Shown piece after piece: positions 4,690 to 55,379 of a stretch of 64,000 nt of DNA. The DNA is taken from NCBI GenBank assembly GCA_030295235.1, contig AP026147.1, forward strand, positions 434,001-498,000. Reading direction: 5' to 3'. The notes below the pieces were generated by a model that saw nothing but the letters and a program-made list of their open reading frames with translations, was not told the DNA's origin and made no database searches. The stretch's first letter is position 1; each line of letters begins with the position of its first letter. Both the position numbers and the translations under genes were made by a program. Origin of the DNA: Fistulifera solaris. Lineage: Eukaryota.

Positions 4690-5364
4690 ACAATAACATA
4701 GTAGCTGCAAATTGTCACAGCAGTTGTCAAATCGTGTCGCGTCTTGTCGTGTTCGCTATCTGCAAGATCATGTAGGAAGTTTTTGTGCTATCGATGAAAT
4801 AATAAAAGCTTTTGAAAATCAGACATGATAGCATCTTGTATAAATCTTGTTGGGATTCTCTTTGCGATATGGAAATAACATCGACCATGGGGGCGGAAAA
4901 ACCCAGCTTCCTTGTCTTTTGAATTACTTCACGGCCACCACTAGATCAAATCTAATATCTTGGCGCAAAAGTCGCTGTTCTATTGATTCCAATTACTAGA
5001 ACTTAGAATAAATGTTTGCCATTTGCCTCAAAAAAAAGATGCTTCGTAACAGCTTCGTACCTGGTAGTTCTTTGAGTCCTGAGTTCTCGGTTGAACTGAT
5101 TGAGTCAAGGGTGTAGAGTAGAAAAAAGTGTAGACGACGCACTGATTGCACCTTTGTTCTTTGCATTGACCGGTACTCACGGGTACAGTAACTTCTATAC
5201 GATTGCAATGACATTTCTGGGCTTTGCCGTCGACGTCAGCATCATGGCGCGCACCGCGAAAAAGTGAAAGAAAAAGAAATGCGCGCCAAACTCGCTTTCG
5301 ATTTTTCGTCATAAAAAACTCAGGAAAGGAATAGCGAGAAAGCTCGCCACCATGAGCCACAAAT

Positions 5365-6194
5365 ATGACAACCGAAGATAAAGATGACATTGTTGCACCA
5401 ACGGATCTTCTCCCACATGATGTAGTGCTCGGGAAGATGGCCAGTGGGAACTTTTCGTCGCCAGGGAATCGTTTATTCAAGCAATTTCTGATGAAAAGAA
5501 ACGCGATTATAGCCAGGTCTCAAGTCATTCGGGGAAAAAACGATTTCATGCGCAATGTGTAGATGAATGGTGCAACAGAATGGATGGACGATTTTTGTTC
5601 AGAGAAACGACGATACTATGTACTGTTGTCAAGTCAGACGAAGATAGAGCTAAGCTGCTGACAAAGGTAAATGCTCTCATGCGAAATCTCCCCTCTCCTT
5701 CGTCGTCACAGGCGGCTGAATCAGAGATTGGGTCTGCCACCGTACCACTACATGAGGAGTCACATACGACTCCCAAAAAGCAAAGAAAGCCCATTGCCAG
5801 CGTCGCTACTTCAGTGACGGTCTCTTCTACCTCCTCTGACGCTAGTGAATCGGAGGGTAATGAGTCTCAAGACCCGGCATCGATTGCAAGTCCGGTTGAG
5901 ACTACACCGGATACACGTAAGAAACCATCACTATCCGTTGTGACGGAAGAGAAATTACTAGAAGACTCTCCTGTCAAAGCGAAGTCAGAAGACACCCACA
6001 CCTCTGACGCTCTCATATCTTCGGATTCTAGTACAGACGAAGTGCAAAATTCGGATAATAAAACGAAGGAAACGCCAGCGGCTCTCTCCAAGAAGAATCA
6101 GCTGCGGCCTTCCCCCACATCTATAACGGGGTTTCATCAAGTTCAGGAAGATGAGACGGTCCGAGAGGAAAGCTCTCCATTGCTACAAATGTAA
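5365..6194 (+). CDS. Diatom DUF6824-like protein with Ser/Thr-rich tail (3' end uncertain)
   Basis: PHDVVLGK...PGNRLF...GRFL resembles the diatom-expanded DVLxGRG...GN domain. Split across two ORFs by an indel near 5550. Confidence 0.5.
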
Positions 6195-6837
6195 CTTCTA
6201 CGTTTGACCATGGCATGCCTCGAATGCCTTCTCGAATAACCGGCCATATGCTTCAGCACGTCTATTTCGTCACAATTAGACGGCGCAAAAGATTCTCAGC
6301 CTGTCTCTGTCGCGCGTCGCGCGCTTGTTAGGACTGCACCCTGTCGGCCTTCGAGACTGCCTAGGTAGATTCAATAGGAAGCATGGATCAATGTAACCGG
6401 CCGTATACTGTCAATAAGGATGCTTAATGTTTCAACAATTGATTTGCCAGGGCGATGTACCATACGCTATAGCTTTTTACCTAGTTGAAGAGAAATATGC
6501 CGATCGAGTAAAGTTCATGACATGATTGCATCTTCCCCACGGACGTCACGAGCGATGACGTGTTCAATAACGCTATCCCTATGGTACCAATAAAGTTCTC
6601 ACCTCGCAAGCATAGAAGAAAGTTCAGTTTTCGTAAGAAAGCGCAAATGAAGACTAATTGCTGCAACTTTGCGCAAGAACTGAACTTGTCTCACAGCTCA
6701 CAGTCTTTGTTAAAACGAAGGGCGGGTAAAGAGTGCGTGAAGGTCATCGAAATAATTTTAAAAAAGTCGACTTGCCGGGACTAGAAATAAGTGAGTCGCA
6801 AAACTCCATGCGCTATAGTACACATTCATTTTCTCGT

Positions 6838-7050
6838 AACGAGAGTTATTGATTGATTGAGTCACGAGTTACGATTCAACGTATGACGGACTTACGTCCG
6901 TGTATTGGAGAGCAATCTTGTTCGAACGTAAGAAGTAGGATGATAATTATATAGTGTGTTGTGAGTTACCGATTGGCTTTGTTATCGAAGTTGATCTTGT
7001 TATTGCGGTTATTCATTGGATAATCGCTCAGAGGAACATTTATCTTCGCT
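6838..7050 (+). repeat. 5' LTR (213 bp)
   Basis: Identical to 13318-13530 except one base (C6899 vs A13379). Confidence 0.97.
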
Positions 7051-7064
7051 GGTTATGAGCCCAG
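7051..7064 (+). promoter_or_regulatory. Primer-binding site, copia-type (internal tRNAi-Met priming)
   Basis: GGTTATGAGCCCAG lies directly after the LTR and closely resembles the Drosophila copia/Ty5-type PBS GGTTATGGGCCCAG. Confidence 0.75.
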
Positions 7065-7135
7065 GTCACGCCGATTGGATTTGATTCGATTGAAAAGCGT
7101 GAATCTGAGTGTGTTGAAGTCATTCTCTCTGGTGG

Positions 7136-8780
7136 ATGACTGATCGTGGAGAAGAAGAAGAAAGCCTTCCATCGTTACAGGAAGAAGAAGAGGAGCCCGA
7201 CAGGCTTCATTTGAACGTTTTCTGGCAAGGAGAAAGAGATTCGGATTCGGATTCGGAGTCGGAAGAAGAAGAAGAACAGGATTCGGATTCAGAGTCGGAA
7301 GAAGAAGAAGAAAAGATGGCCGACGACGATAATTTGGACTATTTGAGCCAGAAACTCGGAGTTGCTCTTTGAGCGACCGACCGTACCACCCAGGAAGTTA
7401 AGAAGAAGAAACCTTTGGTCGAAGCTAAGGATCGAGAAAGTATGAAGCCGAAGGAGAAGTCCCAGCTGCATGAAATTGCTACGGCGGGCATCGAAACGAA
7501 GTTCGAGATCATGGATTCGATCAATTTGAATGATGGAGAAGCGGTTGCAACTCTGTCGAAGGCATACCGTGTTGATTTACGACGCTGAAGTTCCCGTGCG
7601 GTGGCGAACGATATGACATGGATGATGTTTTTCAGATTCCGTCAGAGTTTGTGGCGCACCCGGATTTTTCGGTGCCGATTCCGACCGCACGCAGCGAAAT
7701 GGTGAATTTGTTTACTGGATATTACAAGTTGGATATGGATACTATCAAGAAAGCTTGTGATTTCTACGCGGTGCGAGGTGCAGATTGGCAGGTCGAGAAT
7801 TTGCAATGGACTGGGGAATTGATCCTCAACTGTTGCTCGCCCGACTTGCGAACTCGGATTGAGACACAGGCCCAGAGTGTACCCTACGGAAAGAGGCCTA
7901 CCAGAGCGGGCCGGTCTACTTTAAGATGATGATGGATTACGTTATCGCATGCGTGATTCGTCGGCTATCCGAGGGCTTATCAGTCAGTTCGAGTCGATTA
8001 CGGTTAAGAACTTTCCGGGAGAAAATGTGCGCGACTATAATACGGTTGCGGTGGGCGTTTACAATATGCTCGCAAATTCGATGAACTTATCGGCTAATGC
8101 GGCGATTCCGGATATGGCGAAGCTTGTGAAGCGTGGATTGATCGCGAGCTCTACCGGAGTTTAATAGCGATTTGACAGCCCATTCGGTGCTATTGGGACG
8201 CGATTGTACCGTTGAGGCTTTGACTGATAAAGCCAACGAGTTGTATTCTGGCTTATTGGGAGCAAGTCTTTGGGTTGCTGGCGATGGAAAGCAAAGCGAC
8301 TCTGGATTCTTTGCCGGTAACTGCTATGAGTGCGGTGAGAAAGGACATAAGTCTGTCGATTGTCCGAAGAAGAAGAAGGACGGCGATGGAAATAACAACT
8401 CTGGCAACCGTGGTTCGGGCAATGGTCGTGGAAATGGCCGTGGTGGACGCGGAGGCCGTGGAGGAGGTCGTGGTGGTCGTGGGCGGACGCTGGTGGTGGA
8501 AGAGGCGGAGGCGATTCGAACGGCTCGAATGACAAGAAAGAAAAGGATCCCTTCAGTACCCCGCCCAAGAAAGGCGAAAGTCACACGAAGACCATCAATG
8601 GAAAGACTTACTACTGGTGTGGACGGTGCAATCGTTGGGTCGATCACGACACCGACCAGCATCGAGCTATGTTAGCGTTAAAAGCGAGCTTGAACCTTCG
8701 GATACCAAGTCGTCTGACAAGTCGGATGACAAGAAGGAGTCCGGCAACTTCGCGAGGGCGTTTGACGCCCGCGTTTTTAA
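7136..8780 (+). CDS. gag: gag of the copia element (frameshifted in the assembly)
   Basis: Acidic N-terminus, CCHC knuckle CYECGEKGHKSVDC (about 8322-8363), RGG-rich tract and a second WCGRCNRWVDH motif. Confidence 0.8.
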
Positions 8781-11700
8781 TGGGCCGCTTCAGTGGTTTT
8801 CTGGACCGCTGGAGCAGATGGCCCAAACTCTCCAGAATTGGAAAGGAGTTTATGAAGACAGTCTTCCGAAGCAAGCTCGGGATTATTGGGCTGTTACTTT
8901 GGTTGCTTATGGTTGGAGTTATGATTTTCGGGCGATTGTCGATGGTTCGTGTTCGACGTCGATTATTTTGATGGAAATGCCACTTCGCTTGCATTTTATG
9001 GCGGAGGGTGTGTTAGGATTTGGTTCTGTTGCCCCAGTTTGGTTTGACGTTACACGCAGACCGATTGTGCGCGACAGAGAGAGAGTTGGAAAGAAGAAGC
9101 GACGTCGCTGCCGTGGTTTCGCGAGGAGCAAGACTCGGGAGTCAAAACGCTACCTAAACGTCCTGGATTCCTAGGAGACGAGATTTCTGAGTGGATTAAA
9201 GGATGGGCAGATATACCCGTTCGCTATGTTCCTACGATTCCTGAGATGTTCGATGAAGCGTGCCGTGCCAATCCTGAACTTTTGGATCTCCTCTGTGGTT
9301 TTGGTCGATTCAAATGGCTACGGTGCCTCTCGTTGACAGAAAATCTGGCATTGACAGACAATCTGGTTACCTGCTTAGCGACACTCAAGCCGCTTGCGTA
9401 CAACAATCTGAGTCCTGTTGATGGATGTGTTCAATTACAGAGCGTCTACTTTGGTGCAATGAATGATACGCCCTATTGTGTTCGATACTGGCGCGTCAAC
9501 TGGTGTTACCCCACATCGCGATGATTTTATTGACTTCACTCCGAGTGATTCGTCTTTGACCGAGATCGCTCAGCAAGCACGAAGTTTGTGGTTCGGGTAG
9601 TGTATCCTGGACGGTTCGAGATGATACTGGACAAGAGCATGAATTGAAAACGCGGGCTCTTTATGTGCCTGACGCTCAAGTTCGTCTCTTTAGTCCACAA
9701 GTGCATTTGCAGATCGAAGCTAGAGGGGGTCGTGGTGAATTTCGAGTCACGGAAAAGGGTTCTGTCTTTCGATTTCCTTTTACGAAGAAGTCGTTGACGT
9801 TCCATGACACATGACCGACTTCCGATTGCACGTCTAGCTACGGATGTTGTTGACGACCTCTCTGCGTTTCCGAGTTTTACGCCGCCTCAGGTTGCGGTGG
9901 AAGAAAATGTCCATCTTTCACCAGGGCAGTGCGAGTTGAAACTGTTACACGATCGTTTGGGACACTTTAATTTCCCTTGGATTCAGCAACTCACGCGAGT
10001 TCGAGAGGGGGATAGAGTGCAGGAGCCCATTTTGCGAACAAAATACAAGTCTACGTCCTCTTGTGCGCCGCCGATCTGTGCTTCGTGTCAGTTTGGCAAG
10101 GCAAAACGAAAGGCTATTGGAACGGAAAACAAGTCGAAAGTCCCAGAGAGAGACGGTTCGTTGAAAGAAGGTATCTTGACGCCAGGTCAGATGGTATCGA
10201 CGGATCAGTACGTGTCAAGTGTGTCGGGTCGACGATCGCATACTTACGGGAAAGAGCAAGAGCAAGACAAGTTCAAGTGTGGGACAATCTTTGTGGATAC
10301 GGCTACGACGTACCTGTATGTCGAAAATCAAGTGTCCACGTCGTCAACGGAAACTATTCGATCAAAACATATGTTCAGAGAGAGCTTCGTTCGTATGGAG
10401 TTGAAGTCAAGGAGTACCGCGCAGATTTAGGAGTGTTCAAGTCGCAGGAATTTCTGAAGGATTTGGAGTTGCAAGGACAGCGAATCCATTTCTCCGGTGT
10501 CGGTGCACACCATCAGAACGGAATTGCAGAGAACGCGATCCGAACTGTGACAGAAAGCGCGAGGACGATGCTACTGCACGCGATGATTCACTGGCCAAGC
10601 GAAACGTCGGTGGACTTATGGCCATTTGCGGTAGACTATGCGGTGTACTTATGGAACAGGTTACCGAAGCAGGATTCAGGACTTGCACCGGTCGAGCTAC
10701 TGTCTGGAGTTACGATGGATATGAGTGTACTTCAGCGAATGAGAGTGTTCGGATGTCCGTGCTACGTTCTGGATACTAGGATTCAAGATGGAAAGAAATT
10801 ACCGGGCGGAAGCCGAAAAGTCGAAGAGGTCAGTTCTTGGGAATGTCGAAGCGACACGCAAGTACAATTGGGCTTATTAGGAATTTGAGAACGGGAGCGG
10901 TTTCGCCACAGTTTCACGTGGTGTACGATGACAAGTTCACGACGATTCCGTTGATTCAAAACCTGATGTCGAAGAGCCCGAACCAAAGGATTGGGAAGAG
11001 TTACTTACGTTTAGCCGAGATAAAGTTGAACCCGAGGATGGACAAGAATTACCTTTGCTACACGAGGATTGGTTGACTGACGAAGAAAAGAAACAGAGAG
11101 AGTTGTTAATTCGACGACAAACACAAGAGAGAAACTTGGCTCCGGGACCTCGCCATCGAGAACCGAGAGTCGAGCCGGATCAGATTCATGCGGATCAAGA
11201 TCAAGATGAAGTTCCTATGTTTGCTCCAGAGAGAGATGATAGTGATGATGAGGATGTGGAAGAACCTGCTCCTCGTCGAAGTGAGAGACCGCTGACGTTG
11301 GAATCGCAGTATTACGGGTTCCGATTTCGTAAATCGGCCTGTTAGTCGTGGAAGATTTTATGGGCCCGACGACGATGACAACATTGAAGAAGTTTATATT
11401 GCTGAGTGCGATATGACGAAATTCGGAAAGGAGACCGAGTCTGAGCTGATAGAGAAAGTACAGAAAGAGTTTGGTCTTCCGTCGGAGAATGAAGTTTTTC
11501 TGGCGAAGTCTGGATTTTGATGGGGACATCTTGTCGCAGGGAAATTGGGGTGCGCATGCTTTGTTGATGCGATCGAACGTCGATGAGGACGGATTGGTCG
11601 ATGATTTGCATCCTTTGGCGTTTGCTGTGAAAGCGAACAACGAAGACACTCAATTACCACCAAGCGATGAATGGACCGAATAGTGAGGGCTATCGTCAAG

Positions 11701-13242
11701 CGATGGTCGAAGAGATCGAGTCGTTGGAAAGTTTGGATCCTTGGGACGTGGTTCCGAGATCTGACGCAGTTGAAAAGGGAGCGAATATCTTGCCGAGCAC
11801 TTGGGGCGCTCAAATGCAAAAAGATACCCCGATGGTCGGATCAAGAAATTTAAGGCGAGATGGTGCATTCGCGGAGATCGTCAAATTGAGGGCGTCGATT
11901 TCTTTGAGACGTATGCCCCGGTGGTTTCGTGGAGTACCGCTCGTTTGTTGTTGATTCTGTCGATCGTCTTGGGCTTGGCTACGAAGCAAGTCGACTATAC
12001 GTTGGCGTTTGTGCAGGCTGACCTGAACGAGGAAGTGTTCTGTGAGATGCCGAAAGGATTCGAGCGTCCGGGATACGTGTTGAGATTGAAGAAAAGTGTT
12101 TATGGGTTAAGACAGAGTCCCTTGAACTTCTTTAATTGTTTGAAGAAGGGATTGGAAGATCGAGGATTTGTTCAGTCGAAGAATGAACCTTGTTTGTTTA
12201 TGTCGAGGAAAGTTGTTTGCTTGACTTACGTTGATGATTGCCTGTTCTTCGCGACGTGAGGAACGCGACATCGATGCAGTGATTGACGATCTGCGTAACA
12301 ACGAAAAGTTCCAGAGATTTCAGTTGAATATTGAAGACGATGTTGCTGGATTTCTTGGGATTTTGATTCAAAGAAAGGAAGATGGATCGATTGAGCTTTT
12401 GCAAAGGGATTGATTGATCGGATTTTAGTCACGATGGGTTTACAGGATTGTCGGACGAAGTTCGACTCCTGCTGAATCGAAAACGCTTGGAAAGGATTCT
12501 GATGGAGAAGACTGTGTTGAGAAGTGGTCGTATGCCTCAGTTGTCGGAATGATGATGTATTTGGCGTCGAACTCGCGACCAGATATTGCGTTTGCGGTGC
12601 ATCAATGTGCTAGGTTCACGCACTGCCCTAAACGTATTCACGAGATAGCATTGAAACGAATTGGTCGTTATTTGAAAGCAACGAGTGATCGAGGGATGAT
12701 TATTCGTCCGGATAAAGACTTGAGATTGGATCTTTACGTGGATGCCGATTTCGCGGGATTATGGAATTCCGAAGACGCCGAACGATCCTACGAGTGTGAA
12801 AAGTCGCATCGGGTATGTTATTACGCTTGGAGGTGTTCCGGTGCTTTGGGGATCTAAGTTGCAAAGTGAGATTTCGTTGTCTACTACGGAAGCGGAATTT
12901 ATTGCAGCGTCTATGGCAATGAGACAGTTGTTACCCGTACGCTGAAGTTATGGAAGAGCTGACGGAGCATTTCAAGATCGAAAGCGGAGTGCAGAGTCTA
13001 CTGTTTCTATTGTGTGGGAAGACAACAATGGAGCGCTTACTATGATGAACAACTCTTATCCAAAGATGACCCCTCGGACAAAGCATATTGCTTGCAAGTA
13101 TTGGTGGTTCATTTCGCATATCAAAGATGGAGAGATCGAAGCGAGACGAATCGATACAGCTGAGCAGAAGGCGGATATATTTACGAAGGGCTTGTCGAAA
13201 GGAGAGTTCGAAACAAAGCGCAGGTTATTGATGGGTTGGTGA
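8780..13242 (+). CDS. pol: pol polyprotein (protease, integrase, RT, RNase H), multiple indels
   Basis: PR: PIVFDTGAS (about 9472-9498). HHCC: LHDRLGH...CASC. IN: STDQY / RADLG / HHQNGIAE. RT: KFKARW...ETYAPV...YVDD. RH: YVDADFAG, STTEAE, EDNNGA, QKADIFTK. Confidence 0.92.
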
Positions 13243-13317
13243 GACTCGTCGAAGTTATATGTGTTTAGAGAGATTTAGGATTTTAGGAAGAAGTTCGAAG
13301 CTACGATTGAGAGAGAG

Positions 13318-13530
13318 AACGAGAGTTATTGATTGATTGAGTCACGAGTTACGATTCAACGTATGACGGACTTACGTCAGTGTATTGGAGAGCAATCTTG
13401 TTCGAACGTAAGAAGTAGGATGATAATTATATAGTGTGTTGTGAGTTACCGATTGGCTTTGTTATCGAAGTTGATCTTGTTATTGCGGTTATTCATTGGA
13501 TAATCGCTCAGAGGAACATTTATCTTCGCT
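13318..13530 (+). repeat. 3' LTR (213 bp)
   Basis: Direct repeat of 6838-7050, preceded by the polypurine tract GAGAGAGAG. Confidence 0.97.
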
Positions 13531-13638
13531 CTCGTCAGTCTACGTCCGCCCATTTTTTATTGCGTCGTTATTATTGTTGTCGTTGCTATCATAATATAGT
13601 GAACCCGTTAACATCTTCACAATAGAAGTACGATAAGT

Positions 13639-21255: not shown

Positions 21256-22437
21256 GTGTGAACCAAAACACCGATGGTCCAGAACTTCTGGACCAGTCGC
21301 AGAATTTCTGTGTGACCAAGAACTATTCCAGATTATTGGGAACGTGCAAAGACCTCATCGAATACGTAAAGCATCGATTTCAGAATTTCTGGAACCACCA
21401 AGGATCCTCGGTATGACCCAAAACACCGATGGTCCAGAATTTCTCGACCAGTCGCAGAATTTCTGTGTGACCAAGAGCTATTCCAGATTTTCTGGAATCT
21501 GCTCAGAATTTCTGTAGGACCAAAATCAACGATTCCAGATTATTGGGAACGTGCAAACACCTCATCGAATATGTAACGCATCGATTTCAGAATTTCTGGA
21601 ACCACCAAAGATCCTCAGTGTGAACCAAAACACCGATGGTCCAGAATTACTGGACCAGTCGCAGAATTTCTGTGTGGCCAAGAACTATTCCAGATTTTCT
21701 GGAATCTGCTCAGAATTTCTGTAGGCCTGTAGGACCAAAATCAACGATTCCAGATTATTGGGAACGTGCAAAGACCTCATCGAATATGTAATGCATCGAT
21801 TTCAGAATTTCTGGAACCTCCAAAGATCCTCAGTGTGAACCAAAACACCGATGGTCCAGAATTTCTGGACCAGTCGCAGAATTTCTGTGTGGCCAAGAAC
21901 TATTCCAGATTTTCTGGAATCTGCTCAGAATTTCTGTAGGCCTGTAGGACCAAAATCAACGATTCCAGATTATTGGGAACGTGCAAAGACCTCATCGAAT
22001 ATGTAACGCATCGATTTCAGAATTTCTGGAACCTCCAAAGATCCTCAGTGTGAACCAAAACACCGATGGTCCAGAATTACTGGACCAGTCGCAGAATTTC
22101 TGTGTGACCAAGAACTATTCCAGATTTTCTGGAATCTGCTCAGAATTTCTGTAGGACCAAAATCAACGATTCCAGATTATTGGGAACGTGCAAAGACCTC
22201 AACGAGTACGTAACGCATCGATTTCAGAATTTCTGGAACCACCAAAGATCCTCAGTGTGAACCAAAACACCGATGGTCCAGAATTACTGGACCAGTCGCA
22301 GAATTTCTGTGTGGCCAAGAACTATTCCAGATTTTCTGGAATCTGCTCAGAATTTCTGTAGGCCTGTAGGACCAAAATCAACGATTCCAGATTATTGGGA
22401 ACGTGCAAAGACCTCATCGAATACGTAATGCATCGAT
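21256..22437. repeat. Tandem array, about 6 units (155, 207, 215, 215, 207 and a partial unit), palindrome-rich
   Basis: Units start at 21256, 21411, 21618, 21833, 22048 and 22255. The 215 and 207 bp units differ by an 8-bp duplication (CTGTAGGC). Confidence 0.95.
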
Positions 22438-22724
22438 CCCATCTTGTGGCTTCACGTACCCGAAAATCTGGAAACGTTATGTTTTCACAAAAACTTTCCG
22501 CCTCTCACGACGGCGGGCTCCACAATTTAATTTCGATATCTCTCAATCTCATTACCCATTATTGTAGCTTAACCATCACTAGCAACGATGCATGATTTGC
22601 GTCTGTTTGAAGTATAGTTCCATAGTAAGCGAATTGACTGGGAGACCAAATATGGTGGGGTTTCTGGATATAGTCAGATAATGACAATATCACGCGTTCG
22701 AATATTCTTTTCGGAGCCGCTTGT

Positions 22725-53645: not shown

Positions 53646-53910
53646 TCCATAAAATCTGGTCTCCATAAAATCTGGGGGAGTGGCTTTCGACGTTTCCATA
53701 AAATCTGGGGGTGTGGCGTTCGACTTTTCCATAAAATCTGGGAGAGTGGCGTTCGACGTTTCCATAAAATCTGGGGGTTGTGGCGTTCGACGTTTCCAAA
53801 AATCTGGGAGTGTGGCGTTTGACGTTTCCATAAAATCTGGGGGTTGTGGCGTTCGACGTTTCCAAAAATCTGGGAGTGTGGCGTTTGACGTATCCATAAA
53901 ATCTGGGGTG
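53646..53910. repeat. Minisatellite, about 33-bp unit, about 8 copies
   Basis: TCCATAAAATCTGGGRGWGTGGCGTTCGACGTT units start at 53662, 53695, 53728, 53761, 53795, 53827 and 53861, with partial units at 53646 and 53893. Confidence 0.95.
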
Positions 53911-55379
53911 GGAGTCAAAGTGGACTGTCCAATCCATAGTGAAAAACTACCTCGAGTCGAGCGTTGCGACATGAAGTATCTATGTGGAAAACCAGTGTAC
54001 GGAAAAACTAAGGTGATCACGAAAGAACAAGCATCCTTCGCGACTTTAACACTGGAGTAATAAGTAGACTTTAACGGGAGGAAGCATTGTGTCAAGACGC
54101 TGGTGTCAAAAGTCATTGACACTAGTCGTGCTTATCGTTGCTCTCGCTCCCATGCTTTTATAGTTAGTTTGCAAAATTGCTGGCCGTTCGTGTTGCAGAG
54201 ATTGGACAACTCTACAGCGCATCAAACGGCACACAAGGTAGAGAACTAAGCTACATTGCTATTGCTGTTATTCATTCTACCTTGACTGGGGGTGGCGTTT
54301 TACCTATAGCTGTCCATGAAATATTTGCTGGGGGCTGTGCTGCTTTATTATTCGTCGCCCTTGAATTTTCTAAAAAAAATTGCCCGCATTAGAAAAAAAA
54401 TGAAAACACTTTGAAACAAAACGGCAAAGACAAAATAGTCTATACTGGTAGAGGGTAGATGGGTCTAGAGTAAACGACTTGCCGTCAAGATGATGAATTA
54501 CACGGTGACGACATTTCGATAGCCGTGGCCGAAGCTATCACAAAGCTTGATCGGCAATGAGAGCTCGAAATAAAAGTTTAGTCAGAATCCAGTGGAAGGA
54601 AAATGCACTTCATCTAGAGTCTCCGTGCAGCAATAAGTCCTTGAGATCGCTTTTATTGAAGCAGATCAGGTGGATGTAAAATCGGAAACATGGGAACTAT
54701 TTCGAAAGCAAGTAGAGGAAGGACGTATCCTTACCGCGAAGGCGCCGCTGTTCGCCGACACGGCTTTACAGTACGGTGACCATTCTGCAACGAACAAGTT
54801 TATCTTCTTCTATCTGGCAACCATTAGAAGAGAATAAAGCACGATCATTGCATCGGCAAAACCAATACGGATTTTTTGGTTTTTCTAGGGCAAGGAGAAT
54901 TTGATGGAGGCGTTCACAAGAAAAGAAAGGTTAGAGGAGTCAAGAGTGACTATCAAGCGGTAACAGGATTTCAGCAGCCAATCAGTTATTGTGTAGCGAA
55001 AGTGGAATTGCAGGTTCAAATTTACAGCGACCAATCAAAGTGATTATGAGAGTTGAGAACCCAAAGAGGAGATGTCTATTTCTTTGCCGACCGAAAAAGT
55101 TATCACAAAATTCATGGTTAACCAGAATGATCCAAACACGAAGAAGGATCCATAGTATATTTACAGTTTTCACCATGAGCTCCACCAATGCGATCGACGA
55201 ATTGACTGCGCCGCTGCAGAAACAAACTTTGGAAGACACCAAAGAGAAACCGTCTCACCTACCGTCTCCGGAAACGATTCACAGAAGAACTTGACAAGAC
55301 GGGCTTCACAATCTTCAAACCTATTTCTGATCTGGGATTCTTCGAATGGAAACCCGATCTCAAAGGTCATAGTCCGTTC

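What the first reader, a model, noticed from the sequence alone, without database searches (positions are those of the whole stretch)
6833..13535. Copia retrotransposon with non-canonical LTR ends (5'-AAC...GCT-3', not TG...CA)
Seen: four independent landmarks fix the LTR boundaries, namely the limits of LTR-LTR identity, the TSD CTCGT, the PBS abutting 7050 and the PPT abutting 13318. The ends are AACGAGAG... and ...TCTTCGCT, an imperfect inverted repeat (AACGA vs AGCGA) with no TG/CA at the boundaries. Established: LTR integrases normally join a CA-3' end; the exceptions I know are insect errantivirus AGT...A(C/T)T ends and a few plant motifs such as TA..CA and TG..CT. Inference: this is an active copia lineage whose integrase uses T-3' ends, and motif-based LTR finders would miss it. 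Alternative reading: a 6-bp TSD TCTCGT with the LTR ending GC, which is also non-canonical.
Basis: partly seen in the sequence, partly recalled or inferred. Interest (0 to 1): 0.75.

Follow-up and report, generated by a model that had tools for sequence, protein, structure and literature searches.

The report
Diatom copia with AA...CT repeat ends
This recently inserted jumping gene of a diatom really has end repeats that start AA and finish CT instead of the usual TG...CA, one of several odd-ended families in the same genome, which suggests its inserting enzyme tolerates, rather than requires, the unusual last base.

Summary
Observation confirmed. The 6,693-bp Ty1/copia element has 213-bp LTRs (212/213 identical) reading AAC...GCT. 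A 5-bp TSD fits 5 of 6 two-LTR copies in the genome (the sixth has an irregular junction); the 6-bp alternative fits only this copy. An empty site in another study's short-read data lacks exactly 6,693+5 bp. The PBS pairs with nt 26-39 of host tRNA-iMet (half-tRNA priming). The host is a Fistulifera-type diatom.

The interpretation needs softening. One family member ends AA...CA at both LTRs, the sister family ends AG...CT, and other families end TG...GA or TG...CA; A-starting ends arose at least twice. So end recognition looks relaxed, not switched to T. The integrase residue after the catalytic Glu is Asn in this clade and Arg in 62 of 66 outside relatives, a weak candidate cause. 'Active' is not shown: the assembly copy is full of indels, probably read errors. 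Non-TG/CA ends are published for diatom CoDi and plant copia; I did not find AA...CT in the papers read. The scan noted AG...CT, AG...GT, CG...CG and CA...TG diatom copias before, on other DNA.

The parts
6833..6837 (+). Left target-site duplication CTCGT (5 bp)
   Evidence: empty site lacks element + 5 bp
6838..7050 (+). 5' LTR, 213 bp, AACGAG...TTCGCT
7051..7064 (+). Primer-binding site, 14/14 complementary to nt 26-39 (anticodon arm) of the host tRNA-iMet; abuts the LTR with no spacer
8319..8369 (+). Gag zinc knuckle (gag region about 7300-8700, broken by frameshifts in the assembly)
   Evidence: Pfam zf-CCHC E=1.4e-05
9478..9573 (+). Protease region (IVFDTGAS motif)
   Evidence: Pfam Pol_BBD E=0.0028, below the curated cut-off; motif
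9927..10940 (+). Integrase: HHCC zinc domain and DDE core; catalytic Glu codon 10529-10531 followed by Asn 10532-10534
   Evidence: Pfam gag_pre-integrs E=2.6e-05, below cut-off; motif; model of the intact relative P0004 matches PFV integrase, Z 20.7, rmsd 1.8, 163 residues
11640..13242 (+). Reverse transcriptase and RNase H, ending at TGA 13240-13242 (frameshifted in the assembly)
   Evidence: Pfam RVT_2 E=1.6e-27; 516 of 516 positions of the RT-RNase H part of P0004 covered
13309..13317 (+). Polypurine tract GAGAGAGAG abutting the 3' LTR, in the same register as GAGAGGGAG in related families
13318..13530 (+). 3' LTR, 213 bp, AACGAG...TTCGCT
13531..13535 (+). Right target-site duplication CTCGT

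Best explanation
A recently inserted diatom Ty1/copia (CoDi-type) retrotransposon from a lineage whose integrase does not require the terminal CA. Shown: ends AA...CT, 5-bp TSD, half-tRNA-iMet PBS and PPT abutting the LTRs, a DDE integrase fold. Inferred steps: minus-strand synthesis starts from a 5' tRNA-iMet fragment ending at nt 39, so the first base copied is the LTR's last base; PPT cleavage sets the left end; the cDNA is blunt, and integrase joins the two 3'-T ends (..GCT-3' and ..GTT-3') directly with a 5-bp stagger, without 3' processing. The ancestor of this family (A) and its sister (B) swapped the outermost base pair, TG...CA to AG...CT. Family A then changed the second base of the left end (AG to AA), and one copy carries CA at the right end. 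Recognition probably rests on the 5-8 bp subterminal inverted repeat. An Arg-to-Asn change next to the catalytic Glu may have loosened read-out of the last two bases.
For: Ends and TSD in 5 of 6 copies. Empty sites. PBS = tRNA-iMet nt 26-39; nt 40 is C and cannot pair with the terminal T. PPT register is the same in families A-G, so the end base is substituted, not shifted. A and B form one clade, 100/100; B ends AG...CT in 3 of 3 TSD-bounded copies. The C12 copy ends AA...CA with the same integrase motif. Family D (AG...CT) is rejected as a member of the A/B clade, p-AU 0.006. TG...GA in 20 copies of family C and 7 of family G. Subterminal inverted repeats persist: A AACGA/AGCGA, B AGTGA/AGCGA, C TGTCACG/TCTCACG, D AGTCAA/AGTCAA (read). 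Glu+1 is Asn in 6 of 6 proteins of the A/B clade and Arg in 62 of 66 others. The PFV stretch Glu221-Lys228 contacts the CA bases and Arg222 is singled out (PMC3554684, passage); HIV-1 S153 is listed among DNA-binding/specificity residues (PMC3228729, passage).
Against: CT is still the right end in 12 of 15 family-A LTRs, at both ends in B and at both ends in D; symmetric CT at two independently templated ends argues for some selection for CT, not only tolerance. The CA case rests on one copy in an error-prone assembly (though on both of its LTRs). The Asn is neither necessary nor sufficient: family D (AG...CT) and family C (TG...GA) keep Arg, family E (TG...CA) has Asn, one B copy reads Lys, and 2 outside proteins have Asn. 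The Glu+1 = PFV Arg222 equivalence is by motif position; the fold search printed no residue pairs. No biochemistry; absence of 3' processing is inferred from geometry.
Confidence: 0.62

Rival explanations
1. Switched specificity: the A/B integrase has been retuned to prefer T-3' ends, as in errantiviruses, and CA or TT ends are tolerated leftovers.
For: CT-3' at both ends in B (3 of 3 TSD-bounded copies) and D; right end CT in 12 of 15 family-A LTRs; clade-wide Arg-to-Asn change beside the catalytic Glu.
Against: The C12 copy integrated with a CA-3' end and a clean 5-bp TSD; the left end of A is TT-3', not CT-3'; D has CT ends with Arg.
Confidence: 0.27
2. The family is mobilised in trans by the integrase of a more abundant family (such as C, TG...GA), so its ends say nothing about its own integrase.
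For: No family-A copy in this assembly has an intact pol; A, B, C and D share the PBS type, PPT and 5-bp TSD.
Against: The breaks look like read errors: near-identical copies differ by 44-51 gap openings, family C is broken in the same way, and short-read contigs differ from the window at 50 indel places. Intact 1,446-aa relatives at 89% RT identity exist (P0004, P0006).
Confidence: 0.07
3. The ends are mis-drawn (6-bp TSD, LTR ending GC), an assembly artefact, or canonical ends that mutated after insertion.
For: The 6-bp reading fits this copy; the assembly is indel-rich; the C25 copy has an irregular 3' junction.
Against: The 6-bp reading fails in 4 of 4 other clean copies; the same ends recur in both LTRs of independent insertions; a short-read junction in run X2 keeps the terminal T; tRNA nt 40 cannot pair with that T.
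Confidence: 0.03

Closest known systems
CoDi elements (Ty1/copia of diatoms; Maumus et al. 2009, PMC2806351; Filloramo et al. 2021, PMC8147415)
   Same: Diatom host, copia domain order, length 6.7 kb (range 5.2-8.1 kb), LTR 213 bp (range 153-844), near-identical LTR pairs. TG/CA is missing in CoDi3.2, 4.2 and 4.3; tables S10/S11 list TACA, TGTA, TATA, TTCG, TGAG, TGGA, TGAT.
   Different: Every motif in those two tables starts with T; none is AA...CT or AG...CT. The published non-TG/CA CoDi3.2/4.2/4.3 copies have 4-bp TSDs, this family has 5. No named CoDi sequence was available for a tree.
Non-TGCA plant Copia: AACA and TGTT of Rosaceae (PMC5659011); TGCT, TACT, TGGA and others (PMC9804982; LTR_retriever, 10.1101/137141)
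   Same: Copia elements with short LTRs and non-palindromic ends; AA starts (AACA) and CT ends (TGCT, TACT) each have a precedent; the C12 copy is literally AA...CA; same ends not monophyletic in lotus.
   Different: The combination AA...CT, with CA at neither end, is not in the passages read; the lotus and LTR_retriever papers report the first T as invariant; unrelated host lineage.
Drosophila errantiviruses / Zam clade (PMC5408687, PMC3601003)
   Same: A-starting, T-ending LTRs (AGT...AnT); families B and D here read AGT...GCT and AGT...ACT.
   Different: Ty3/gypsy with env and target-site specificity; here a copia, so the likeness is convergent.
Hemivirus-type priming (Drosophila copia, yeast Ty5; recalled, not read here)
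   Same: PBS complementary to the anticodon arm of tRNA-iMet, abutting the LTR end.
   Different: Those elements end TG...CA (recalled); no phylogenetic link tested.

Membership tests
Ty1/copia LTR retrotransposon | LTR pair, PBS, PPT and TSD | tested here: met
Ty1/copia LTR retrotransposon | Order gag - protease - integrase - RT - RNase H, with an RVT_2-type RT | tested here: met
   two of the Pfam hits are below the curated cut-off and the integrase-core and RNase H fragments had no Pfam hit
Ty1/copia LTR retrotransposon | DDE integrase | tested here: met
   D105, D179, E214 invariant in 64 relatives; model of relative P0004 matches retroviral integrase cores
Ty1/copia LTR retrotransposon | TG...CA termini (usual, not universal) | tested here: not met
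   AA...CT; published copia exceptions exist
CoDi (diatom copia) | Diatom host | tested here: met
   Fistulifera solaris protein GAX10397.1 falls inside family B of this genome at branch length about 0
CoDi (diatom copia) | Element and LTR length within the CoDi range | tested here: met
   6,693 bp and 213 bp against 5,182-8,062 and 153-844
CoDi (diatom copia) | RT clusters with a named group CoDi1-7 | not testable with these tools
   No named CoDi sequence among the 120 listed homologs; additional file 1 of PMC2806351 not readable
CoDi3.2/4.2/4.3 (published non-TG/CA families) | TA...CA / TA...TA ends with 4-bp TSD | tested here: not met
   AA...CT and 5-bp TSD here against table S11
Hemivirus-type priming | PBS complementary to an internal 5' half of tRNA-iMet | tested here: met
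   14/14 match to nt 26-39 of the host gene; use as primer not shown
Errantivirus | Ty3/gypsy pol order and env | tested here: not met
   Integrase lies before RT; RVT_2 hit; only 75 bp between pol stop and 3' LTR

The most novel reading that the evidence does not exclude
The A/B clade of diatom copia has an integrase that has lost dependence on the 'invariant' CA through an identifiable change in the alpha-4 helix (Arg to Asn after the catalytic Glu), and diatom copias as a group cycle quickly among TG..CA, TG..GA, AG..CT, AA..CT and AA..CA. Near-identical integrases with different natural ends in one genome would make the long-open question of why LTR elements keep CA directly testable.
Probability: 0.25. 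Interest if true: 0.65.

Novelty: new variant of a known kind. Interest (0 to 1): 0.42.

Why it matters
The terminal CA is treated as nearly invariant for LTR integrases, and plant surveys found at least the first T fixed, with the Rosaceae AACA elements as an exception. This family has neither TG nor CA yet inserted repeatedly and recently, and its close relatives in one genome span five end types. That gives matched integrase/end pairs for a biochemical test of end recognition, and it means that motif-filtered LTR annotation probably undercounts intact copia in diatoms. The surprise is moderate, because non-TG/CA copias are already published for diatoms and plants.

Tried and rejected
6-bp TSD reading: rejected. 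Post-insertion mutation or shifted PPT cleavage: rejected, ends recur in independent copies and the PPT register is conserved. Single origin of A-starting ends (A+B+D): rejected, p-AU 0.006, two changes on the tree; the group was named after I had seen the first tree and D sits on a long branch (1.17), so the p value is optimistic. Self-priming for this family: no match of the PBS to its own LTR. Viral-contig scan: no relatives. The metagenome scan (80 loci) gave no locus of the A/B clade among the 14 placed in the tree and no locus with both LTRs among the 16 examined; PPT-adjacent starts there were TG (5), TA (3), TC (1), possibly AG and AA (1 each, no TSD, not counted as evidence). Sequence searches of the PDB with the integrase found nothing meaningful; only the fold search did. 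No RNA holder listed; X1 is only guessed to be RNA. Earlier findings by sequence: none. Literature: searches gave no description of AA...CT ends or of this family (one search returned no paper); the library lacks most subscription journals, Repbase and GyDB. Table S12 of PMC8147415 had no hit for six A-starting or GA/CT motifs, but I did not check that it has a motif column. The Ty1 integrase paper PMC8487063 was seen only as a search listing, so the statement that Ty1 needs no 3' processing is recalled. The LTR_retriever motif list is in a supplement that I did not see.
Full report
Observation. The window holds two 213-bp direct repeats at 6838-7050 and 13318-13530 with one mismatch. Both start AACGAGAG and end TCTTCGCT. 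CTCGT flanks the element on both sides, GGTTATGAGCCCAG starts at 7051 and GAGAGAGAG ends at 13317.

Boundaries from other copies. A search of the own genome (51.7 Mb, 62 contigs) with the LTR gave 15 hits: six two-LTR elements (C34 = this one, C1, C42, C25, and the 83%-identical subfamily on C6 and C12), one truncated copy (C18) and two fragments. All 13 LTRs with a left end start AAC. Twelve of 15 end GCT; both LTRs of the C12 copy end GCA; the 3' junction of the C25 copy is irregular. Five of the six elements have an exact 5-bp TSD. The 6-bp reading works only for this copy, 1 of 5, and for 0 of 3 copies of the sister family. Independent short-read data agree: a contig of run X2 (wetland metagenome, another study) crosses the site without the element and lacks 6,698 = 6,693 + 5 bp, and another X2 contig follows the LTR through its last base before diverging. 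The empty site fixes the sum of element and TSD, not the split; the split comes from the other copies. The paralogous locus on C35 is also empty.

What it is. Pfam finds a zinc knuckle, weak protease and pre-integrase hits, and RVT_2 (E 1.6e-27) in copia order; 6 of 11 fragments had no hit and one had an unrelated weak hit. The nearest proteins are intact 1,446-aa pol proteins from metagenomes (89% in RT) and a Fistulifera solaris protein (82%) that falls inside the sister family B of this genome, so the host is that diatom or a very close relative. A model of the integrase of the intact relative P0004 (mean pLDDT 89) matches retroviral integrase cores (PFV Z 20.7, rmsd 1.8, 163 residues). The window copy has no long ORF. 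Near-identical copies differ by 44-51 gap openings over 6.7 kb, other families are broken likewise, and short-read contigs differ from the window at 50 indel places (12 shown, 38 counted), so most breaks are probably long-read errors. Activity is therefore not shown. Recent insertion is: LTR pairs with 0-1 substitutions and absence in another sample.

Priming. The PBS pattern also hit two host tRNA-Met(CAT) genes. The PBS pairs 14/14 with nt 26-39 of that tRNA, the anticodon arm, and nt 40 is C, which cannot pair with the LTR's last T. This is the half-tRNA geometry that I recall for Drosophila copia and Ty5. It makes the terminal T the first templated base and again argues against the 6-bp reading.

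Context in the genome. I fetched 60 loci around RT or PBS hits (of 90 RT matches and 14 PBS matches) and tested this element plus 58 of them for TSD-bounded ends. Fifty of 59 gave such ends (5 no LTR pair, 4 no exact TSD at the expected boundary): AA..CT 4, AA..CA 1, AG..CT 4 (family B 3, family D 1), TG..GA 27 (family C 20 with 5-bp TSD, family G 7 with 6-bp TSD), TA..TA 1, TG..CA 13. So 37 of 50 lack TG...CA. The sample is ranked by likeness to this RT and is not a genome-wide fraction. Of twelve further loci fetched to look at distant families, most were TG...CA and one (L215) was not. The PPT ends in the same register in families A-G, so terminal bases were substituted, not shifted. On an RT-RNase H tree (34 of 76 rows) A and B form one clade (100/100). 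D lies outside it, separated by TG-starting relatives, and a tree that joins D to A/B is rejected (p-AU 0.006; group named after the first tree, D on a long branch). AG...CT is best read as a swap of the outermost base pair of TG...CA, a wording taken from earlier finding e1-7577389 and supported here: D starts AGTCAAAG where canonical family H starts TGTCAAAG, and B starts AGTGAAGA where metagenome locus L104 starts TGTGAAGA. Family A adds G-to-A at the second base of the left end.

Integrase. The residue after the catalytic Glu is Asn in A and B (one B copy reads Lys) and in all 6 listed proteins of that clade, and Arg in 62 of 66 other relatives with the motif. By motif position it corresponds to PFV Arg222 and HIV-1 Ser153. 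A passage of PMC3554684 places the CA-contacting residues at Glu221-Lys228 and singles out Arg222; a passage of PMC3228729 lists S153 among residues for DNA binding and specificity. That Arg222 hydrogen-bonds the penultimate bases is recalled, not read here (0 hits). Against a simple link: D and C have odd ends with Arg, and E has TG...CA with Asn. It is a candidate, not an explanation.

How it most likely works. Half-tRNA-primed reverse transcription gives a blunt cDNA ending ..GCT-3' and ..GTT-3'; integrase joins these directly with a 5-bp stagger (inferred). Because one member integrated with a CA-3' end and close families use GA-3' or CA-3', while all keep a 5-8 bp subterminal inverted repeat, relaxed read-out of the last two bases (0.62) is preferred to a switch to T (0.27). 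The symmetric CT in B and D is the best argument for the switch.

Comparison with print. Maumus 2009 (PMC2806351; passages and section 18; supplement not readable) reports TG/CA missing in 3 of 26 CoDi families. Filloramo 2021 (PMC8147415; passages, section 33, tables S10 and S11 read whole, S12 searched only) lists TACA, TGTA, TATA, TTCG, TGAG, TGGA and TGAT, all T-starting. Yin 2017 (PMC5659011; abstract and section 12) describes AACA and TGTT copias. The lotus paper (PMC9804982; passages) and LTR_retriever (10.1101/137141; passages) list TGCT, TACT, TGGA and others with an invariant first T. PMC5408687 and PMC3601003 (passages) give AGT...AnT for errantiviruses. PMC2774666, PMC12477816, 10.1101/2025.10.24.684338, PMC3738965, PMC3797783 and PMC6784120 were searched for passages and added nothing on these ends. 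AA...CT or AG...CT in a copia was not found in these or in searches; Repbase, GyDB and most subscription papers could not be searched, and the unread supplement of PMC2806351 bears on the claim. The scan itself noted AG...CT and AG...GT diatom copias in other genomes and CG...CG and CA...TG in this one (unchecked AI notes).

Verdict. Real, well supported, and a new end motif within a known kind (non-TG/CA copia). Interest 0.42: the single motif is a modest surprise; the range of ends among close relatives and the integrase change give a usable test system.

Noticed in passing
L051, L053, L057, L062, L065 (own genome, families E, F, G): The PBS (CGCTTCCTCTGC...) pairs for 12-16 nt with the D-arm of the host tRNA-iMet, always ending at nt 23, and not with the own LTR. 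This suggests priming by a 23-nt 5' tRNA fragment, shorter than the copia/Ty5 half-tRNA; I did not search the literature for it.
   Followed up: partly
L064, L066, L074, L076 and other family-H loci: PBS position holds CGCTTATAAGCG, a perfect palindrome whose first 5 nt match the same tRNA register (nt 19-23); TG...CA ends, 6-bp TSD.
   Followed up: partly
window 53913-54287: Solo LTR of family D (AGTC...GACT, 81% to L049) inserted in the 33-bp tandem repeat at about 53650-53912; flanks GTGGG / GGGGG, an imperfect TSD.
   Followed up: partly
window 6832-6844: The target and LTR start form a palindrome, TCTCGT-A-ACGAGA. Five of the six family-A target sites contain CG, against 9 of 20 in family C and 0 of 3 in B (read); noticed after the fact, untested.
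   Followed up: no
L037-L081 (family C, 20 TSD-bounded copies): The most numerous copia family in the sample ends TG...GA with a 5-bp TSD; its integrase motif reads QNAVAER rather than QNG..ER.
   Followed up: partly
L215 (G000:C33, about 190.3-198.1 kb) and L087: Further odd ends: an element with about 250-bp repeats that do not read TG...CA, and a distant element with TA...TA ends.
   Followed up: no
window 21256-22464: Tandem array of 207-215 bp units, about six copies.
   Followed up: no
L048 (G000:C37): A 4.5-kb internally deleted family-B element with near-identical AG...CT LTRs and exact TSD, possibly a non-autonomous copy.
   Followed up: no
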